From: a virus
Lineage: Duplodnaviria > Heunggongvirae > Uroviricota > Caudoviricetes
Virus record (IMG/VR): IMGVR_UViG_2565956713_000002
Reading direction: 5' to 3' (one strand)
Length of the DNA stretch: 15,825 nt
How positions within the stretch are numbered: the stretch's first letter is position 1; each line of letters begins with the position of its first letter. Position numbers and translations under genes: made by a program. Positions 6,523 to 15,825 of this stretch are shown in pieces. Below the pieces are notes generated by a model. That model had not been told where the DNA came from and made no database searches. It saw only the letters and a list, made by a program, of their open reading frames with translations.

Positions 6523-6647
6523 TGCGGGTTATGCGGGTTATCCTGTGTGTAAGTGCATTAACTGTATGAATAAAAAGGAAATCAATAACCCGCACGTAAC
6601 CCGCAAAACGGCAGTTATAACCCGCAAAAGTGCGATTATAACCCGCA
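6523..6647. repeat. Iteron-type replication origin: 2 direct TGCGGGTTA copies, an AT-rich spacer, then 4 inverted TAACCCGCA copies
   Basis: Direct copies at 6523 and 6532; inverted copies at 6586, 6597, 6618 and 6639 (spacings 11, 21, 21 bp). AT-rich 45-bp spacer between the two groups. Lies immediately downstream of the rep gene. Confidence 0.65.
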
Positions 6648-6710: not shown

Positions 6711-7136
6711 ATGACAGCACAGATAGCTGCTTACGGGCGGTTGGTGGCTGACCCGCAGTTAAAGACCACCAGCAAAGGGACACAAATGGCGATGGCGAGT
6801 ATGGCGATTCCTCTTCCGTGCAGCCAGGCAGATGACGGAACAGCGACGATGTGGTTATCAATTCTGGCGTTTGGCAGACAGGCCGATGCACTGGCAAAAC
6901 ACCACAAAGGCGAGCTGGTGAGCGTGGCGGGTAACATGCAGGTAAGCCAGTGGACAGGCCAGAACGGGGAAACGCGGCAGGGCTGGCAGGTTATCGCAGA
7001 CAGCGTAATCAGTGCGCGAACGGCGCGACCTGGTGGCAAAAAAGGCCAGCAGGGGCAGGCCACTGACGCACTGAACAGGGCAAAACAACAGACAGGCCAG
7101 CACGATGACCCGTACGGGGATGAAATACCGTTTTAG
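6711..7136 (+). CDS. ssb: Single-stranded DNA-binding protein
   Basis: OB-fold-like N-terminal region, Gly/Gln-rich linker and the acidic C-terminal tail DDPYGDEIPF, matching the SSB D-D-D-I-P-F tail. Confidence 0.75.
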   Translation: MTAQIAAYGRLVADPQLKTTSKGTQMAMASMAIPLPCSQADDGTATMWLSILAFGRQADALAKHHKGELVSVAGNMQVSQWTGQNGETRQGWQVIADSVISARTARPGGKKGQQGQATDALNRAKQQTGQHDDPYGDEIPF

Positions 7137-7154
7137 CGATAACAGGGGGGATAC

Positions 7155-7403
7155 ATGCCAGTGACATTTGAAGAAGTCCAGCAACATAAAAAGTTTCATG
7201 GTTTTGATGATCTGGAAACCACGACAGCAAAAAAATATCGCCGTCTGCTTTCTTCCGATGCGTTGTTTTTTGTAGATCATCATGATTTTCTGCGTAGCTC
7301 ACTGACAGGGGAAATTTTCGCAACCAACCGTGAGCAGGTGGAAGCGATGATCGAATATCTGTGGAAAATAAGACGCAGAATGCGGGATTCCATGAAACAG
7401 TAA
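7155..7403 (+). CDS. Hypothetical protein (82 aa)
   Basis: ORF with a G-rich RBS, followed by a clear intrinsic terminator. Confidence 0.45.
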   Translation: MPVTFEEVQQHKKFHGFDDLETTTAKKYRRLLSSDALFFVDHHDFLRSSLTGEIFATNREQVEAMIEYLWKIRRRMRDSMKQ

Positions 7404-7440: not shown

Positions 7441-7676
7441 AGGTTTTGTAAATTATTTGTTCGTGGTTGTTTCTGGCTGTTCAGTGATTCTGGCTGATAT
7501 TTACATACTGATTTTTATGTATATGTTGGCGTGTGGCACTCAGACGTGAGCCGCCACAATGCCGCCTGACCCCCTGCGCGATGCCGGGTTGATCTGCGAG
7601 ATGCCGAGAGTGTCGGGCGGCGCTCCCTCCGTGTTGGTTTCACGTCCTGAATCTTAACCAATACGAGAAAACCTTC

Positions 7677-11581: not shown

Positions 11582-11700
11582 GGCCGTCAGAGGGGGTGGG
11601 GGTGGTTTTCAGGACGAAACCGTCCCTGCCGGACACCGACCGCCCCCTCAAATTTTTGTGCACGGTAATTTTTTTGAAAATAATTGGGCGAAAAAAGAAC
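11582..11700. other. Candidate cos/packaging-site region: G-run inverted repeat (GAGGGGGTGG ... CCGCCCCCTC) and an internal hairpin, between HNH and terS
   Basis: Inverted G/C-rich arms read directly, with an internal AGGACG-AAAC-CGTCC hairpin. In HK97-like cos phages that pair an HNH gene with terminase, cos lies just upstream of terS. Confidence 0.3.
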
Positions 11701-12057: not shown

Positions 12058-13702
12058 GTACGCAGAAGGCGTAAAAAACGGCAAAATTACGGCCTGTAAA
12101 CGACTGAAACAGGCCGTTAAACGGTATTTTTCTGACCTTGAAAACTCCCTTTACACGTTCGATCCGGAGGTCGTGGAGCGGTTTATTGCCTTTTCCCGGG
12201 TGTGTCCGCACGTAAAAGGCGCAATGCGCGGTAGTCCCATTGAACTGGAGCCGTGGCAGCAGTTCGCCTTTGCCTGCATCCTGGGCTTTAAGGTTAAGGC
12301 CACCGGACGGCGCAAATACACCAGCGCATTCATTGAAGTACCGCGAAAAAATGCCAAATCCACGGTCGCCGCTATCCTGGCTAACTGGTTTCTGGTTATG
12401 GAAAACGGGCAGCAGGATATTTACACCGCCGCCGTGAGTCGTGATCAGGCGCGGATCGTGTTTGATGATGCGCGTCAGATGTGCCTTTTATCCCGACCGT
12501 TACGAAAGCGGGTAAATATTCAGGCACACAAGGTGATACACCCGAAAACCAACAGCCTGTTAAAGCCACTGGCAGCAAAAGCGGCAACCATTGAAGGTAC
12601 AAATCCGAGTCTTGCCATTGTGGATGAATATCACCTGCACCCTGACAACGGGGTTTATTCCGCACTTGAGCTGGGGATGGGGGCGCGTCCGGAGGGGCTG
12701 TTATTTGCCATCACCACATCGGGGAGCAACGTTGTTTCAGCCTGTAAACAACACTATGACTATTGCTGTCAGATACTGGATGGTGAAGAGGTGAACGAAT
12801 CCATGTTCGTTCTGATTTATGAGCTGGATGATGAAAGCGAGGTTGACGATCCGGCGATGTGGATAAAGGCGAATCCCAATATCGATGTTTCCGTAGATCG
12901 TGAAAAACTGGCCTCAACCATCCAGAAAGCGCGGGGTATTCCGTCGCAGTGGGTGGAAATGCTCACCAAGCGATTCAATATCTGGTGTCAGGGGGCTACG
13001 CCGTGGATGGGTAACGGTGCATGGGCTGAGTGCGCCGGAACGTTCACGGAGGAAGATTTACACGGTCAGGAGTGTTACGCGGGGCTTGATTTATCATCCA
13101 CAAGCGACATCTCCAGCGTGTGCTATGCCTTTCCGGTTGGTAAAACCATTATGCTGGTTTCTCGTCACTATCTGCCGGAATTTCAGCTACAGAACCCCGC
13201 CAATAAAAACCGCGCCATCTATCGCCAGTGGGCAAAGGCGGGCTGGATACGCACAACACCGGGTGACTGCATTGATTATGACCGTATCCGTGATGACATC
13301 ATGGCGGATGCAGAGAATTTCAATATCAGGCTGGTGGGCTTTGATACGTGGAACGCCACGCACCTGAGAACGCAGTTACAGGGGGCAGGCTTTGAGGTGG
13401 AGCCGTTCCCGCAAACCTACCTTCGTTTCAGTCCGGCGGCGAAATCGTTCGAGGTTTTTGTTAACCGGAAGGTGATTGTGCATCGTGGTGATCCGGTGCT
13501 GGCCTGGTCAATGAGTAATGTTGTGATGCAGAGTGACGCGAACGCCAATATCAAGCCGAACAAGAAAAAATCATCCAACAAGATAGACCCGAGCGTTGCG
13601 GCGCTGATGGCGTTTGGCACATTCCAGGCTGAGCATGAGGAATTTGCATTTGATATGAGCGACAGCCAGAAAGAGCGACTAGCGGCATTTGATGGGGTAT
13701 GA
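12041..13702 (+). CDS. Terminase large subunit (ATPase plus nuclease)
   Basis: 553-codon ORF with Walker A-like VPRKNAKST, Walker B-like LAIVDEYHL and C-terminal nuclease-like acidic motifs (GLDLSSTSD, VGFDTWN). The ORF begins with TTG at 12041, overlapping terS by 17 nt; the start is uncertain. Confidence 0.85.
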   Translation: MTAWHEYAEGVKNGKITACKRLKQAVKRYFSDLENSLYTFDPEVVERFIAFSRVCPHVKGAMRGSPIELEPWQQFAFACILGFKVKATGRRKYTSAFIEVPRKNAKSTVAAILANWFLVMENGQQDIYTAAVSRDQARIVFDDARQMCLLSRPLRKRVNIQAHKVIHPKTNSLLKPLAAKAATIEGTNPSLAIVDEYHLHPDNGVYSALELGMGARPEGLLFAITTSGSNVVSACKQHYDYCCQILDGEEVNESMFVLIYELDDESEVDDPAMWIKANPNIDVSVDREKLASTIQKARGIPSQWVEMLTKRFNIWCQGATPWMGNGAWAECAGTFTEEDLHGQECYAGLDLSSTSDISSVCYAFPVGKTIMLVSRHYLPEFQLQNPANKNRAIYRQWAKAGWIRTTPGDCIDYDRIRDDIMADAENFNIRLVGFDTWNATHLRTQLQGAGFEVEPFPQTYLRFSPAAKSFEVFVNRKVIVHRGDPVLAWSMSNVVMQSDANANIKPNKKKSSNKIDPSVAALMAFGTFQAEHEEFAFDMSDSQKERLAAFDGV

Positions 13703-13992
13703 CGAGAATGACTGAAACCGATCTACTAAAAATAATTCGCTGCGTTACCGGAGTCTGCCAGGCAACAGGCAAACCGGAGGCCAAGCAGCCGGATACCGTC
13801 ACCGCTGAAAATTACGCGCGTGTGGTGGCTAAGGTGATGCGCCGTGACGGTATTGAGCTTAACGGCGTGGATATGCGCAACATACGAACCAGAGTCCTTG
13901 AGTTGCTGGCATACCGTCGCCGTTCTCAACAACGGAGGGAGAGCGCGAAAAATACTTACCAGTGGAAGAAGCCGGAACGGTTGCGGCGGTAG
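13699..13992 (+). CDS. Hypothetical protein (97 aa), last gene of the element
   Basis: ORF whose start overlaps the terL stop (ATGA). Basic C-terminus; no recognisable motif. Confidence 0.45.
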   Translation: MTRMTETDLLKIIRCVTGVCQATGKPEAKQPDTVTAENYARVVAKVMRRDGIELNGVDMRNIRTRVLELLAYRRRSQQRRESAKNTYQWKKPERLRR

Positions 13993-14331
13993 ATTCCTGA
14001 TATTCAGGAAAACCACGAATCTGTGGGTTTTACTGGCGCGGTTACGGCGGTGACACGCACCGAGGCAGAACAATTACCGTAGGTTAAAGCGACAGTATTC
14101 ACACCAAAGGCAGAAATTAGCGGTTAACGTAACTGACTGATATTTTCAGGAACAGCCAACGGCTGAGGCCGGAGCTATAAGAATAGCTTTGGGTACAGTC
14201 CTCAGTTTTGAGGGATGTTAACCAACTGAATAATAAGCAAACCTCAAAATTGAGTTTTGTATCTGCCTGAGTTATTTCTGTGCTAACTTGTTGATATTCC
14301 CGACGGCCCAAAAATGGGTTGGCTGGTTGGT

Positions 14332-14449
14332 GAGTTGCAGATTTGCAACTCGACCATGAAACTACGGAAACTACCCGTAGTTTGGGTAGTAAGAGCAACA
14401 CCCAGATTTTGGGGCTTACTCGCGATCCCCAAATAAAGGGGATCGGTGG
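14332..14449. repeat. 118-bp direct repeat, copy 1 (starts with near-palindrome GAGTTGCAGATTTGCAACTC)
   Basis: Direct comparison with 14766..14883 shows 6 mismatches in 118 bp. Contains AAACTAC x2 followed by GTAGTTT and GGTAGT, and a GATCCCC-AAATAAA-GGGGATC hairpin. Confidence 0.85.
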
Positions 14450-14478
14450 CATCACTGGCCCCACTTTCCTGATGTGTT

Positions 14479-14632
14479 TGCGGGTTATTTGGGAGAGGTT
14501 GCGGGTTATTTTGAATGACTTGCGGGTTACGATTTGGCTAACATTTGAACATGTCATTTTTCAACGCATTGATATTAAATAATAAAAAATACTTAGCACG
14601 CGAAGATAACCCGCTAACCCGCATAACCCGCA
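14479..14632. repeat. Second iteron cluster: 3 direct TGCGGGTTA copies at exact 21-bp spacing, a ~75-bp AT-rich spacer, then 3 inverted TAACCCGC copies
   Basis: Direct copies at 14479, 14500 and 14521; inverted copies at 14607, 14615 and 14624. Same 9-mer as the origin at 6523..6647. Confidence 0.65.
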
Positions 14633-14765
14633 CTGTTTTGTATATATATACGAAAAATTGCATTCAGGAGGGGTAGCAAAATCCCTACCGTCTCTTATCT
14701 CTTGGAGTGCCCGCCTCTTCGAATTTTAACCCCCGTGAAATTACAAAATTTCCCTGACTGATGGC

Positions 14766-14883
14766 GAGTTGCAGATCTGCAACTCGACTATGAAACTACG
14801 GAAACTACCCGTAGTTTGGGTAGTAAGAGTAACACCCAGATTTTGGGGCTTACTTGCGATACCCAAATACAGGGGATCGGTGG
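14766..14883. repeat. 118-bp direct repeat, copy 2 (starts with perfect 20-bp palindrome GAGTTGCAGATCTGCAACTC)
   Basis: About 95% identical to copy 1, 434 bp downstream. The 20-mer at 14766..14785 is its own reverse complement. Confidence 0.85.
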
Positions 14884-15288
14884 AAGAAATATCGTTTCTC
14901 ATATGTGAGTACCGAGGGCGGAATTCCGCCTTCGGTTACTTATTGTGCTCATGCACAGGGAGGGGCGGGTCAAATCTCTGTACCCTGACGTCTTCCGGAC
15001 TGCCCGCTCCATCGATTTTTTATACCCGCGAAAAATGCTTCACGCTGGTGGGCATGATGCGTGGGGATGCTGATAATGGGTTATTGTGGGATAGATGTCT
15101 CATACAATAAGAGATTCATAATTTGCTTTTTAATACTGTTATACTCGCCGCCTTTCTACCGTGCTCATGCTTTCGCATATTTTCGGCTTTGTGCAATAAT
15201 CCGTATATCACTCGGTGTATCACTTTTAGCTAAAATGCATGGCGTGTTTGTTAATTTAACTGATTAAAATCAGTGGGATATAAAGTTT

Positions 15289-15825
15289 ATGAAACATATT
15301 GTAGAAGTAATGATCCCCGAAGCGGAGATTAAAGCGCGTATCGCCGAACTGGGTCGTCAGATTACTGAGCGTTACAAAGACAGCGGCAGCGATATGGTGC
15401 TGGTGGGTCTGCTGCGTGGCTCATTTATGTTTATGGCGGACCTGTGCCGTGAAGTTCAGGTATCTCATGAAGTCGACTTTATGACCGCCTCCAGCTACGG
15501 TAGCGGCATGTCCACCACCCGTGATGTGAAAATCCTCAAAGATCTGGATGAAGATATCCGTGGCAAGGACGTGCTGATTGTTGAAGATATCATCGACTCG
15601 GGGAATACACTGTCGAAAGTGCGTGAGATCTTAAGCCTGCGCGAACCGAAGTCGTTGGCGATTTGTACGCTGCTGGATAAACCGTCCCGTCGTGAAGTGA
15701 ACGTCCCGGTAGAATTTATCGGTTTCTCGATCCCGGATGAGTTTGTGGTGGGTTACGGCATTGATTACGCACAGCGTTACCGTCATCTGCCGTATATCGG
15801 CAAAGTGATTCTGCTGGACGAGTAA
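15289..15825 (+). CDS. hpt: Hypoxanthine phosphoribosyltransferase (core chromosomal gene)
   Basis: Complete 178-aa ORF with the PRPP-binding motif [14 protein letters not shown]; essentially the enterobacterial Hpt sequence as recalled. Different sequence character from the island. Confidence 0.95.

What the first reader, a model, noticed from the sequence alone, without database searches (positions are those of the whole stretch)
14332..14883. Two 118-bp direct repeats, each beginning with a 20-bp palindrome, bracketing the distal iteron cluster
Copies at 14332..14449 and 14766..14883 are ~95% identical. Each begins with GAGTTGCAGAT(T/C)TGCAACTC, a perfect 20-bp palindrome in copy 2 and one central mismatch in copy 1, which suggests a dimeric protein-binding site. 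This is followed by AAACTAC-AAACTAC-GTAGTTT-GGTAGT, a direct-then-inverted heptamer array that could form alternative hairpins or act as arm-type recombinase/RDF sites. A third hairpin (GATCCCC...GGGGATC) is intact only in copy 1, so there is no covariation to support a conserved RNA fold. The repeats flank the second iteron cluster, loosely recalling the two 120-bp direct repeats of P4 crr.
Basis: seen in the sequence. Interest (0 to 1): 0.7.

Follow-up and report, generated by a model that had tools for sequence, protein, structure and literature searches.

The report
Conserved hairpin module flanking satellite ori-cos cassette
The two 118-bp repeats are real copies of a previously undescribed, strongly conserved, hairpin-rich non-coding module found at the right end of E. 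coli phage satellites (PICIs), and here they bracket an inserted 'replication origin plus packaging site' cassette; what the module itself does is still unknown.

Summary
Copies at 14332-14449 and 14766-14883 match at 112 of 118 positions, and the palindrome, heptamers and third hairpin are as described.

The window is a capsid-forming PICI inserted in the 5' end of hpt. All of 13993-15288 is satellite DNA.

The repeat ("R") tracks the satellite family, not the chromosomal site. It occurs in 704 of 5426 E. coli genomes, usually once. It lies at the right end of PICIs that have unrelated integrases and packaging modules, and no phage record has it. It follows the last packaging-operon gene (orf97, phrog_1561) and precedes an intrinsic terminator. 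It is more conserved than that gene. Two of its hairpins show compensatory changes.

The DNA between the copies is a complete PICI-type iteron origin plus a diverged phiP27/SfV-type cos. A second cos of that type (91-95% identical to phage cos) follows copy 2. Single-copy relatives look like the R x R deletion product.

The integrase arm-site reading is rejected. The P4 crr analogy holds only for the distal iterons, not for the repeats.

My best guess for R is a structured 3'-UTR RNA of the late operon, at low to moderate confidence. A DNA protein-binding array is nearly as likely.

The parts
13699..13992 (+). orf97, the last gene of the packaging operon (phrog_1561, function unknown). It has a basic C-terminal helix.
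   Evidence: PHROG hit at 3.7e-47 and no Pfam hit. A homologue lies upstream of R in nearly all of about 90 loci. The model has three helices, pLDDT 69, and no PDB fold match.
14000..14284 (+). About 290-bp non-coding insert between orf97 and R1. It begins with a weak terminator-like hairpin (14013-14026). Most relatives lack it.
   Evidence: Terminator-like site found. In most loci R starts about 47 nt after the orf97 stop; in this window, L003 and a few others it starts about 340 nt after.
14293..14331 (+). 'H0 unit': TGATATTC, a hairpin (GGCCCA 14305-14310 / TGGGTT 14315-14320), then a Chi-like octamer GCTGGTTG (14322-14329; a perfect GCTGGTGG in most relatives).
   Evidence: The stem sequence differs completely between islands while pairing is kept. 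A perfect Chi lies at this position in 39 of about 90 upstream contexts. Three such units stand in tandem in Citrobacter L093.
14332..14449 (+). R1, copy 1 of the 118-bp module. H1 palindrome 14332-14351. Heptamer array 14359-14390. Composite hairpin GAGCAA 14393-14398 / TTACTC 14416-14421 enclosing CCCA/TGGG. H3 CGATCCCC 14423-14430 / GGGGATCG 14438-14445.
14450..14659 (+). Complete PICI-type replication origin: 3 direct GCGGGTTA iterons, an AT-rich spacer, then 3 inverted iterons.
   Evidence: Iterons found. The segment aligns end to end with the sequence at the primary-ori position of other PICIs (L046, L016) and with the right-end ori of Citrobacter L093. The organisation matches published GN-PICI origins, which have two iteron sets flanking an AT-rich region (PMC6092414).
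14660..14765 (+). cos1 (S1), a diverged phiP27/SfV-type cos-like site with core GTGCCCGCCTC at about 14708-14718.
   Evidence: It aligns with the phiP27 cos region, the SfV left end and S2, sharing the invariant GGA..GCCCGC..TTTT..CCCG.GAAA (pattern hit). It has no direct BLAST hit in phages.
14766..14883 (+). R2, copy 2 of the 118-bp module, with a perfect H1 palindrome and a mismatched H3.
   Evidence: It is 97.5% identical to single-copy R of other islands but 94.9% identical to R1.
14884..14946 (+). Small hairpin (AGAAA 14885-14889 / TTTCT 14895-14899), then a strong intrinsic-terminator-like hairpin at 14911-14936 with a T-rich tail.
   Evidence: The terminator scan finds 11 pairs, 8 of them GC. 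The element is conserved after R in most loci. Read by eye from the alignment, its stem variants give G.U on the + strand and never A.C.
14950..15043 (+). cos2 (S2), a phiP27/SfV/SfII/ST64B-type cos site. The equivalent of the annotated 10-nt phiP27 cos is TGCCCGCTCC at 15001-15010.
   Evidence: It is 91-95% identical to phage genome ends, and matches the phiP27 region that carries a 'cos-site' feature at 82%.
15044..15051 (+). Perfect Chi site (GCTGGTGG) just after cos2.
   Evidence: It is conserved after the cos in L093 and L099.
15061..15288 (+). Integrase-specific attP arm, carrying GTATATCACTCGGTGTATCACT (15203-15224) and a replacement promoter region for hpt.
   Evidence: Similarity to islands at other att sites stops at about 15038-15061. 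The motif recurs next to int at attL in L001 2745-2752.
15289..15307 (+). attR core, ATGAAACATATTGTAGAAG, the first codons of hpt.
   Evidence: The empty K-12 site and the attL of strain B1172 share ATGAAACATACTGTAGAAG.
6524..6646 (+). Primary iteron cluster (ori) after the DUF927 primase gene, with the same 8-mer as the distal cluster.
11582..11700 (+). The island's own cos-like site in the canonical phage position, between the HNH-adjacent ORF and terS (core ACCGCCCCC at 11639-11647).
   Evidence: Read by eye, it resembles the phiP27 cos. The same element is present in the Salmonella cfPICI L095, which lacks S2.

Best explanation
The two repeats are copies of 'R', a satellite-specific non-coding module of four consecutive hairpins. 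R belongs to the right end of enterobacterial PICIs, both capsid-forming and Rpp-type. Its normal place is after the last packaging-operon gene (orf97) and before the operon's intrinsic terminator.

It is present twice here because an 'origin + cos' cassette has been joined in at R by recombination between related islands. The cassette is a complete iteron ori (14450-14659) plus a diverged P27-type cos (14660-14765). The resulting order is R1 - ori - cos1 - R2 - terminator - cos2 - Chi - att arm.

The 118-bp direct repeats then make the cassette gainable and losable by homologous recombination. Most relatives carry one R and look like the deletion product.

Shown: the anatomy, the distribution, the purifying selection, the identities of the cos and ori, and the non-sister relationship of the two copies.

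Inferred: R itself acts in cis or in trans as a structured RNA. It would be the 3' untranslated tail of the late (packaging) transcript, serving as an mRNA 3'-end stabiliser or processing element, or as a 3'-UTR-derived small RNA. On this reading R is neither a recombinase site nor a Rep site.
For: Distribution: 704 of 5426 E. coli genomes have R, with a median of one place per genome. 84 IMG/VR contigs have it. No phage record matches it. It is also present in a Salmonella cfPICI.

Context: R is always on the same strand as orf97 and downstream of it, and a terminator hairpin follows it.

Selection: mean pairwise identity is 0.909 for R, 0.865 for orf97 codon positions 1+2 and 0.738 for position 3. 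R exceeds position 3 in 1062 of 1128 pairs.

Structure: z = -6.7. 93.6% of cells are paired, against 30-41% when the partners are slid. There are 27 double-change cells against 8.8 +/- 2.5 in shuffles. The upstream hairpin H0 keeps its pairing with entirely different stems.

Terminator: its stem variants are G.U on the + strand only, so a + strand transcript crossing R is terminated there (my reading of the alignment).

No conserved promoter precedes R.

Cassette: the ori is homologous to primary PICI oris, and the cos identity rests. Single-copy relatives match window 14000-15061 in two pieces spanning 634 bp (H11-H26; sequence). R1 and R2 are each 97.5% identical to single-copy R elsewhere but 94.9% to each other. 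Close copies of the cassette occur in only about 22 genomes.
Against: There is no expression data.

Wobble versus A.C intermediates show no clear strand bias inside R: about 8 sites are G.U on + and 6 would be G.U on -.

The two most conserved hairpins (H1, H2) never vary, so they say nothing about pairing. Their perfect dyad symmetry and 9-bp-phased heptamers look like DNA binding sites.

RNAalifold's own consensus differs from my helices and has a small covariation term of -1.09.

The terminator tail is not a clean U-run.

In this window a 290-bp insert with a weak terminator-like hairpin separates orf97 from R1. R1 has no terminator of its own.

Some islands have orf97 but no R (L093, L098).
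Confidence: 0.4

Rival explanations
1. R is a double-stranded DNA array of protein-binding sites. A dimeric helix-turn-helix protein would bind the 20-bp palindrome, and a ribbon-helix-helix-like or other oligomer would bind the four 9-bp-phased ACTAC/GTAGT boxes. The array would nucleate a complex that assists packaging or replication next to cos and ori. Candidate binders are orf97 or another conserved satellite protein.
For: H1 and H2 are invariant in sequence across 48 variants, including their loops and spacers. The boxes are laid out symmetrically as two direct and two inverted. Mismatch intermediates show no strand bias. R lies next to cos in about a third of islands and next to an ori here. 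The gene orf97, with a basic C-terminal helix, is tightly linked to R. In Shigella L098, which lacks R, the same place holds four GTGAC direct repeats about 10-11 bp apart.
Against: H0 and H3 keep their pairing while their sequences change, which is not expected of sequence-specific duplex sites. No second copy of the palindrome or the heptamers exists anywhere else in the island. R occurs in many islands without the P27-type cos or a nearby ori. orf97 has no recognisable DNA-binding fold, and some islands have orf97 without R.
Confidence: 0.3
2. The repeats plus the enclosed iterons form a P4 crr-like cis replication region. It would be a distal second Rep-binding locus that cooperates with the primary ori, with the repeats as part of the replication element.
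For: The distal cluster carries the same 8-mer iterons as the primary ori, about 8 kb away. It is bracketed by two roughly 120-bp direct repeats. The island has a P4-alpha-like primase-helicase (DUF927) and its own SSB.
Against: The repeats contain no iterons. The enclosed DNA is a full origin in its own right, homologous to primary origins of other PICIs. Most islands have R with no distal iterons. The same ori-cos module occurs without R (L093, L099) and in an island whose own ori uses different iterons.
Confidence: 0.07
3. R has no function of its own. It is a recombination scar, or a selfish or hitch-hiking repeat that marks a hotspot where right-end modules are exchanged.
For: R has sharp boundaries. 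Three or more different downstream contexts and several upstream contexts occur. It is present in some related islands and absent from others. GGTGG-like motifs lie at both junctions.
Against: R is more conserved than the first two codon positions of the adjacent gene. Compensatory changes maintain its stems. Its orientation and order relative to orf97 and the terminator are fixed.
Confidence: 0.1
4. R provides arm-type binding sites for the integrase or the excisionase (AlpA), or contains the att core.
For: It contains direct and inverted short repeats and lies within about 400-950 bp of attR.
Against: The same R sits in islands with unrelated integrases and att sites. The att core lies at the hpt start codon. 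The integrase-specific arm starts only after about 15061 and has its own repeated motif, shared with attL.
Confidence: 0.02
5. R encodes a small protein. A 27-codon ORF runs from ATG 14356 to TAA 14437: MKLRKLPVVWVVRATPRFWGLLAIPK.
For: The ORF is present in copy 1 and in many variants. The 9-bp indel is in frame and some substitutions are synonymous (read).
Against: There is no Shine-Dalgarno sequence. The start is lost in L015, an early stop occurs in the L005 group, and the stop is lost in copy 2 and in the c-type variants, so the length is not conserved.
Confidence: 0.03

Closest known systems
P4 crr (cis replication region). Recalled from memory, not verified in a paper here: Flensburg & Calendar 1987; Ziegelin et al. 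1993.
   Same: Both are a distal second cluster of Rep iterons, several kb from the primary ori of a satellite with a primase-helicase. Both are associated with two direct repeats of about 120 bp.
   Different: As I recall it, in P4 the iterons lie inside the 120-bp repeats. Here the repeats have no iterons and the iterons form a separate, complete ori between them. R also occurs alone in most islands.
Gram-negative PICI replication origins (Fillol-Salom et al. 2018, PMC6092414)
   Same: The DNA between the repeats has the published layout of two iteron sets flanking an AT-rich region. It is homologous to the sequence at the primary-ori position (after the primase gene) of other E. coli PICIs.
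   Different: It lies at the right end of the island, next to cos, rather than after pri-rep, and it is a second copy. R itself is not part of any described ori.
cos sites of phiP27 / SfV / SfII / ST64B-type HNH-terminase phages, and satellites that carry a helper-type cos (P4, SaPIbov5; two cos sites in EcCICFT073)
   Same: S2 is 91-95% identical to these phage cos regions over 80 bp, and S1 is a diverged homologue. Carrying helper-type cos sites, and more than one of them, is known for satellites (PMC6739421, PMC6092414).
   Different: The phages have no R; an HNH gene abuts their cos. R precedes cos in only about a third of R-bearing islands. The cos sites described for EcCICFT073 are lambda-like.
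Structured 3'-UTR elements and 3'-UTR-derived small RNAs of enterobacteria, and REP/ERIC-type transcribed palindromic repeats
   Same: All are hairpin-rich sequences between a stop codon and an intrinsic terminator, and can be conserved more strongly than the coding sequence. The size, about 120 nt, is similar to ERIC.
   Different: No Rfam family matches. R is confined to satellites and is not dispersed in the chromosome. The U-tail is poor. Expression has not been shown.

Membership tests
P4 crr-type cis replication region | Direct repeats of about 120 bp that themselves contain the Rep (alpha) binding iterons | tested here: not met
   All GCGGGTTA matches (0-1 mismatch) lie outside 14332-14449 and 14766-14883.
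P4 crr-type cis replication region | A second iteron locus distant from ori, with the same iteron as ori | tested here: met
   Clusters at 6524-6646 and 14480-14631 share GCGGGTTA. This applies to the DNA between the repeats, not to the repeats.
P4 crr-type cis replication region | Required in cis for replication | not testable with these tools
   This needs deletion and plasmid-maintenance assays.
Integrase/RDF arm-type sites (attP arms) | The sites co-vary with the integrase type and lie in the att arms of that element only | tested here: not met
   The same R (77-100% identical) is present with different integrases and att sites. The integrase-specific sequence starts only after about 15061.
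phiP27/SfV-type cos site (applies to S1 and S2, not to R) | Sequence homology to the mapped cohesive-end region of these phages | tested here: met
   S2 is 91-95% identical to the genome ends of SfII, SfV, SfI and ST64B, and 82% identical to the phiP27 region carrying the 'cos-site' feature. S1 aligns with the same invariant core. R has no phage match.
phiP27/SfV-type cos site (applies to S1 and S2, not to R) | Cleaved by a cognate HNH-TerS-TerL terminase to give cohesive ends | not testable with these tools
   This needs end-mapping of packaged satellite DNA.
Gram-negative PICI ori | [quoted passage not shown] | tested here: met
   with the description in PMC6092414. This applies to 14450-14659, not to R.
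Known RNA families (Rfam 15) | A covariance-model match | tested here: not met
   There are no matches at E <= 1 anywhere in the window, and no tRNA or tmRNA.
Structured 3'-UTR RNA / 3'-UTR-derived sRNA | Lies between a stop codon and an intrinsic terminator on the coding strand | tested here: met
   In most loci R starts about 47 nt after the orf97 stop and is followed by the terminator hairpin. In this window an insert intervenes before R1.
Structured 3'-UTR RNA / 3'-UTR-derived sRNA | Base pairs maintained by compensatory change, with G.U preferred over A.C on the transcribed strand | tested here: inconclusive
   Compensatory changes occur in H0 and H3. There is no strand bias inside R. The terminator stem shows a + strand bias. 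H1 and H2 are invariant.
Structured 3'-UTR RNA / 3'-UTR-derived sRNA | A detectable stable transcript | not testable with these tools
   No expression data were available.
Dispersed chromosomal repeat (REP/ERIC/MITE-like) | Many copies per genome in unrelated intergenic regions | tested here: not met
   The median is one place per genome and the maximum is 6. Every context examined is the right end of a PICI.

The most novel reading that the evidence does not exclude
The R-bracketed 'ori + cos' unit may be a portable trans-mobilisation cassette. It would be a minimal set of cis sites that lets whatever DNA carries it be replicated by the Rep of one PICI lineage (GCGGGTTA iterons) and packaged by a P27/SfV-type terminase. 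R would be its recombination and portability module, and at the same time a new satellite-specific structured RNA or DNA element needed for transfer.

The hint is L099 and about 127 similar genomes. There an 81-88% identical ori-cos module sits at the right end of a PICI whose own primary ori uses different iterons (GTCTACC type). That ori would serve a foreign Rep, in a 'satellite of a satellite' or cross-mobilisation arrangement.

R x R recombination in this island would release a 434-bp circle carrying R + ori + cos.
Probability: 0.15. Interest if true: 0.75.

Novelty: new variant of a known kind. Interest (0 to 1): 0.55.

Why it matters
PICIs and capsid-forming PICIs are major vehicles of gene transfer and anti-phage defence in Enterobacteriaceae, yet their cis-acting DNA is poorly mapped. 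In the preprint I could read, the cos of cf-PICIs was not located.

This work makes three points.

- It places phiP27/SfV-type cos sites, a second full origin and oriented Chi sites in the right-end non-coding region.
- It indicates that satellites of different packaging types share this mosaic.
- It isolates one 118-bp module that is under stronger constraint than the neighbouring gene, is present in about 13% of complete E. coli genomes, and has no described function.

If R is needed for satellite transfer or late-gene expression, it would be a new handle on satellite biology and a useful marker for finding PICIs. If the ori-cos cassette works in trans, it would add a further layer of parasitism between satellites.

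Tried and rejected
- **Known RNA families.** Rfam at E <= 1 over the whole window and ARAGORN found nothing.
- **Is R the cos site?** No.
  - The lambda-type cos of Rpp-type PICIs lies upstream of rpp (L003 16951).
  - The P27-type cos is S1/S2, and the island's own cos-like site is near terS.
  - Many R-bearing islands have no cos nearby.
- **Sigma-54 promoter overlapping the Chi-like octamer and H1.** The GG-N10-GC spacing is not conserved between variants (by eye).
- **Sigma-70 promoter for R.** None was found, and no upstream sequence is conserved.
- **boxA/boxB (nut-like) reading.**
  - A TGCTCTTA on the minus strand is present only in the minority GAGCAAC variant.
  - The H0 loop is not conserved.
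  - The resemblance of the orf97 C-terminus to the lambda N arginine-rich motif rests on memory only.
- **orf97 fold.** The model is of moderate quality (pLDDT 69) and has no PDB match at E <= 0.001.
- **27-codon ORF in R.** It is not conserved.
- **Searching beyond Escherichia.**
  - An exact-pattern scan of GTDB representative genomes found nothing.
  - An orf97-based scan found only one Shigella locus, which lacks R.
  - No more divergent R homologues could therefore be obtained to test covariation in H1 and H2.
- **Literature.**
  - No paper in the library contains the palindrome or heptamer strings.
  - No open paper on P4 crr was found.
  - An attempt to locate EcCICFT073 in CFT073 by coordinates hit a lambdoid prophage instead.
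- **RNAalifold.** It produced a different, weakly supported consensus.
Full report

Yes. The repeat finder reports a two-member direct-repeat family at 14328-14449 and 14762-14883, 94% identical and spaced 434 bp. A pairwise alignment shows that similarity begins at 14332/14766 and ends at 14449/14883. There are six mismatches in 118 positions, and the flanks are unrelated.

- Copy 2 opens with the perfect palindrome GAGTTGCAGATCTGCAACTC; copy 1 has GATT at the centre.
- The heptamer AAACTAC occurs seven times in the 15.8-kb window. Six of these lie inside the two copies. The expected count is 1.37, and no shuffle out of 200 reaches seven.
- The third hairpin (CGATCCCC...GGGGATCG) is intact only in copy 1.
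- The 8-mer iteron GCGGGTTA forms one cluster at 6524-6646, after the primase gene, and a second at 14480-14631, between the repeats. Neither repeat contains an iteron.
- Each copy folds much better than shuffled sequence on either strand (z = -6.7 and -8.1).

**2. Where are we?**

The window is nearly identical to a region of E. coli B1172. Its gene order is: integrase, DUF6387, AlpA-like, ORF6N, YlcI/YnfO, Icd-like, DUF4222, DUF927 primase, SSB, major capsid, prohead protease, portal, connector, HNH, TerS (P27 family), TerL and a small ORF. This is a capsid-forming PICI lying between gcd and hpt.

Comparing the empty K-12 site with the attL of B1172 places the att core on the first codons of hpt: ATGAAACATA(C/T)TGTAGAAG, with attR at 15289-15307. 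The whole non-coding stretch 13993-15288 therefore belongs to the satellite.

**3. Does the repeat belong to the satellite or to the chromosome?**

It belongs to the satellite.

- The 118-bp unit (R) is found in 704 of 5426 complete E. coli genomes, with a median of one place per genome.
- It is found in 84 IMG/VR contigs and in no phage record.
- Every context I opened is the right end of a PICI, whatever the integrase and att site:
  - hpt (this island);
  - cspD/clpS, an Rpp-type PICI (L003);
  - a tRNA-Ile gene (L004);
  - thiM (L006);
  - a tRNA site in Salmonella (L095);
  - helper-embedded PICIs inside prophage capsid, terminase and portal genes (L005, L010/L019, L008).

- Similarity between islands at different sites stops at about 15038-15061. 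The integrase-specific arm begins there. That arm carries its own repeated motif, GTATATCACTCGGTGTATCACT at 15203-15224. TATATCACTCGGTGTATCACT is also found beside int at attL.

This rules out the arm-site or RDF-site reading for R.

**4. What surrounds R?**

In about 90 loci a homologue of the small ORF at 13699-13992 (orf97, phrog_1561, function unknown) lies upstream of R on the same strand. The usual gap is about 47 nt.

Between the orf97 stop codon and R there is a recurring unit: TGATATT, then a 5-7-bp hairpin whose stem differs completely between islands, then (G)GCTGGTGG. The octamer GCTGGTGG is the E. coli Chi site.

- It is a perfect Chi in 39 of about 90 contexts.
- It is one base off in this window (GCTGGTTG, 14322-14329).

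Citrobacter L093 has three such units in tandem.

After R come a small hairpin and then a strong terminator-type hairpin at 14911-14936 with a T-rich tail. In some other lineages a different hairpin with a T-run takes its place.

Read by eye from the alignment, the stem variants of the terminator give G.U on the + strand three times and A.C never. This is what one expects of a + strand RNA terminator.

R thus occupies the 3' untranslated region of the packaging operon.

**5. What lies between and after the repeats?**

*The packaging sites.*

- The segment after copy 2 (about 14958-15037, S2) is 91-95% identical to the genome ends of phages SfII, SfV, SfI, SfIV and ST64B.
- S2 is 82% identical to the phiP27 region that carries an annotated 10-nt 'cos-site' (CGCCCGCCCC). 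That site lies between the HNH-like gene and the P27-family terS.
- The window equivalent of that 10-mer is TGCCCGCTCC at 15001-15010.
- The segment before copy 2 (14660-14765, S1) aligns with the same core (GGA..GCCCGC..TTTT..CCCG.GAAA). It keeps the phage-like stretch up to the position of the terS start.
- A perfect Chi follows S2 at 15044-15051.

*The origin.* The segment after copy 1 (14450-14659) is a full origin. It aligns end to end with the DNA at the primary-ori position (a few kb upstream of R) of other PICIs (L046, L016) and with right-end origins of L093 and L099. It has the published PICI layout of two iteron sets flanking an AT-rich region (PMC6092414).

The local order is therefore: orf97, a 290-bp insert, hairpin/Chi-like, R1, ori, cos1, R2, terminator, cos2, Chi, att arm, attR.

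*The island's own cos-like site.* The island also has a cos-like site in the canonical phage position, between the HNH-adjacent ORF and terS (11582-11700). The Salmonella cfPICI shares this site but lacks S2.

**6. How did the duplication arise?**

- R1 and R2 are each 97.5% identical to single-copy R elements of other islands, but only 94.9% identical to each other.
- S1 and S2 are far more diverged than R1 and R2.
- Most relatives, such as L003, have exactly [window 14000-14331] - one R - [window 14884-15061] (H11-H26; sequence).
- Close copies of the ori-cos1 cassette occur in only about 22 genomes.

This fits recombination at R between different islands' right ends better than a recent in-place duplication. 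It also makes the cassette gainable and losable by R x R homologous recombination.

An 81-88% identical ori-cos module occurs at the right end of another PICI type in about 127 genomes, without R. In L099 the island's own primary ori has different iterons (GTCTACC type). The module therefore behaves as an independent unit.

**7. Is R functional?**

- Mean pairwise identity over 48 distinct orf97+R haplotypes is 0.909 for R. It is 0.865 for orf97 codon positions 1+2 and 0.738 for position 3. R exceeds position 3 in 1062 of 1128 pairs.
- On the alignment of 48 variants my five helices are paired in 93.6% of cells, against 30-41% when the partners are slid.
- There are 27 double-change cells, against 8.8 +/- 2.5 in shuffles.
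- The compensatory changes are in H0 and H3, for example GATACCC/GGGTATC, GATCCCC/GGGGATC and TGATACCC/GGGTATCA.
- H1, H2 and much of the central hairpin never vary. They are constrained in sequence and say nothing about pairing.
- Inside R, intermediates are G.U on the + strand at about eight sites and would be G.U on the - strand at about six. There is no strand signal.
- RNAalifold proposes a partly different consensus with little covariation support.

**8. Mechanism.**

*Shown.* R is a satellite-specific module under purifying selection. It sits between the last late gene and the terminator. The two copies bracket an ori-cos cassette.

*Inferred.* I favour R acting as RNA, as the structured 3' tail of the late transcript (stabiliser, processing element or 3'-UTR-derived small RNA). 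The reasons are:

- its fixed position and orientation;
- the absence of its own promoter;
- the structure-only conservation of H0 and H3;
- the + strand terminator that follows it.

*The main rival.* The rival is nearly as good. R could be a duplex DNA array, with a palindrome for a dimer and four 9-bp-phased boxes for an oligomer, serving packaging or replication. In favour are the invariant dyad-symmetric sequences, the lack of strand bias, and the GTGAC x4 array found at the same place in an island that lacks R.

*Candidate binder.* orf97 is the obvious candidate because of its tight linkage and basic C-terminal helix. However, it has no recognisable fold, and it sometimes occurs without R.

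*Unique to R.* The palindrome and the heptamers occur nowhere else in the island.

**9. Comparison with known systems.**

- *P4 crr.* The crr parallel applies to the distal iterons, not to the repeats. My knowledge of crr is from memory.
- *The ori and cos parts.* These are members of known kinds: PICI origins and phiP27/SfV-type cos sites. Satellites with helper-type or multiple cos sites are known, for example P4, SaPIbov5 and EcCICFT073 (PMC6739421 and PMC6092414).
- *R itself.* It matches no Rfam family and no phage. I found no paper containing its sequence. The cf-PICI preprint does not map a cos or mention such an element.

**10. Verdict.**

This is a real and non-trivial feature.

The region is best described as the mosaic cis-acting right end of a PICI, made up of hairpin/Chi units, R, a terminator, an ori and cos sites. 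R is an undescribed conserved module of unknown function, and the two copies frame a recombined ori-cos cassette.

Interest is moderate (0.55). The anatomy is new and testable, but the function of R remains an inference.

Noticed in passing
window 14950-15043 and 14660-15765 region: S2 14950-15043, S1 14660-14765: Two phiP27/SfV-type cos sites lie at the right end of the island. S2 is 91-95% identical to the cos of phages SfII, SfV and ST64B. S2 is also present at the right end of Rpp-type PICIs that use lambda-type cos (L003), which suggests several alternative helpers.
   Followed up: yes
window 11582-11700: A third cos-like site of a related but distinct type (core ACCGCCCCC at 11639-11647, followed by TCAAATTTTT) lies between the HNH-adjacent ORF and terS, the canonical position in HNH-terminase phages. 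It is probably the cf-PICI's own cos. The Salmonella cfPICI L095 also has it.
   Followed up: partly
window, whole; Chi at 253, 3182, 3214, 5321, 8957, 9209, 10443, 13330, 15044, 15399 (+) and 3669, 5914, 6766, 7954 (-): The island is very rich in Chi (GCTGGTGG): 14 copies in 15.8 kb (one, at 15399, lies in hpt beyond attR), 10 of them on the + strand. By the lambda cos-Chi orientation rule (textbook knowledge), that is the orientation RecBCD would recognise when entering at a cos-cut right end and moving left. This may protect a satellite that has no Gam.
   Followed up: partly
window 14293-14331; L093 2786-2940; L098 1790-2010: A recurring unit lies after the orf97 stop codon: TGATATT, a hairpin whose stem differs between islands, then Chi. 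It is sometimes repeated in tandem, three times in a Citrobacter island. Each unit ends like the 3' end of orf97 (GGCGGTAA-like).
   Followed up: partly
window 15289-15307 and 15100-15288; L001 2585-2607: The satellite integrates into the first codons of hpt and rebuilds them. The hpt gene is therefore expressed from satellite-supplied upstream DNA. A TTGCTT-N17-TATACT promoter-like site can be seen by eye near 15125-15155.
   Followed up: partly
window 15203-15224 and L001 2731-2752: GTATATCACTCGGTGTATCACT lies in the attR-side arm, and TATATCACTCGGTGTATCACT occurs next to int on the attL side. These are likely the true arm-type integrase sites.
   Followed up: partly
window 7615-7626: GGGCGGCGCTCC lies just upstream of the capsid gene. 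Its first eight bases match lambda cosN (GGGCGGCGACCT). It is conserved in L004 and L006. Its meaning is unknown.
   Followed up: no
L099 1990-2210 versus 7030-7190: This PICI's primary ori uses GTCTACC-type iterons, yet it carries at its right end an ori with GCGGGTTA iterons plus a P27-type cos. The right-end ori would need a foreign Rep.
   Followed up: partly
window 13699-13992 (orf97): The C-terminus RRRSQQRRESAKNTYQWKKPERLRR is strongly conserved (YxWKKPExLRR). It resembles an arginine-rich nucleic-acid-binding helix; the comparison with lambda N is from memory. The protein has no Pfam family and no structural match.
   Followed up: partly
L098 2020-2080: In a Shigella island that has orf97 (62% identical) but no R, the corresponding place holds four GTGAC direct repeats about 10-11 bp apart.
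   Followed up: no
plasmid records NZ_CP148328.1 (10,790 bp) and CP088587.1: R occurs on a 10.8-kb E. coli 'plasmid' record, possibly an excised circular PICI captured by assembly.
   Followed up: no
window 14000-14284: This 290-bp non-coding insert between orf97 and R1 is shared with L003 and partly with Citrobacter L093. It is hairpin-rich and its function is unknown.
   Followed up: no
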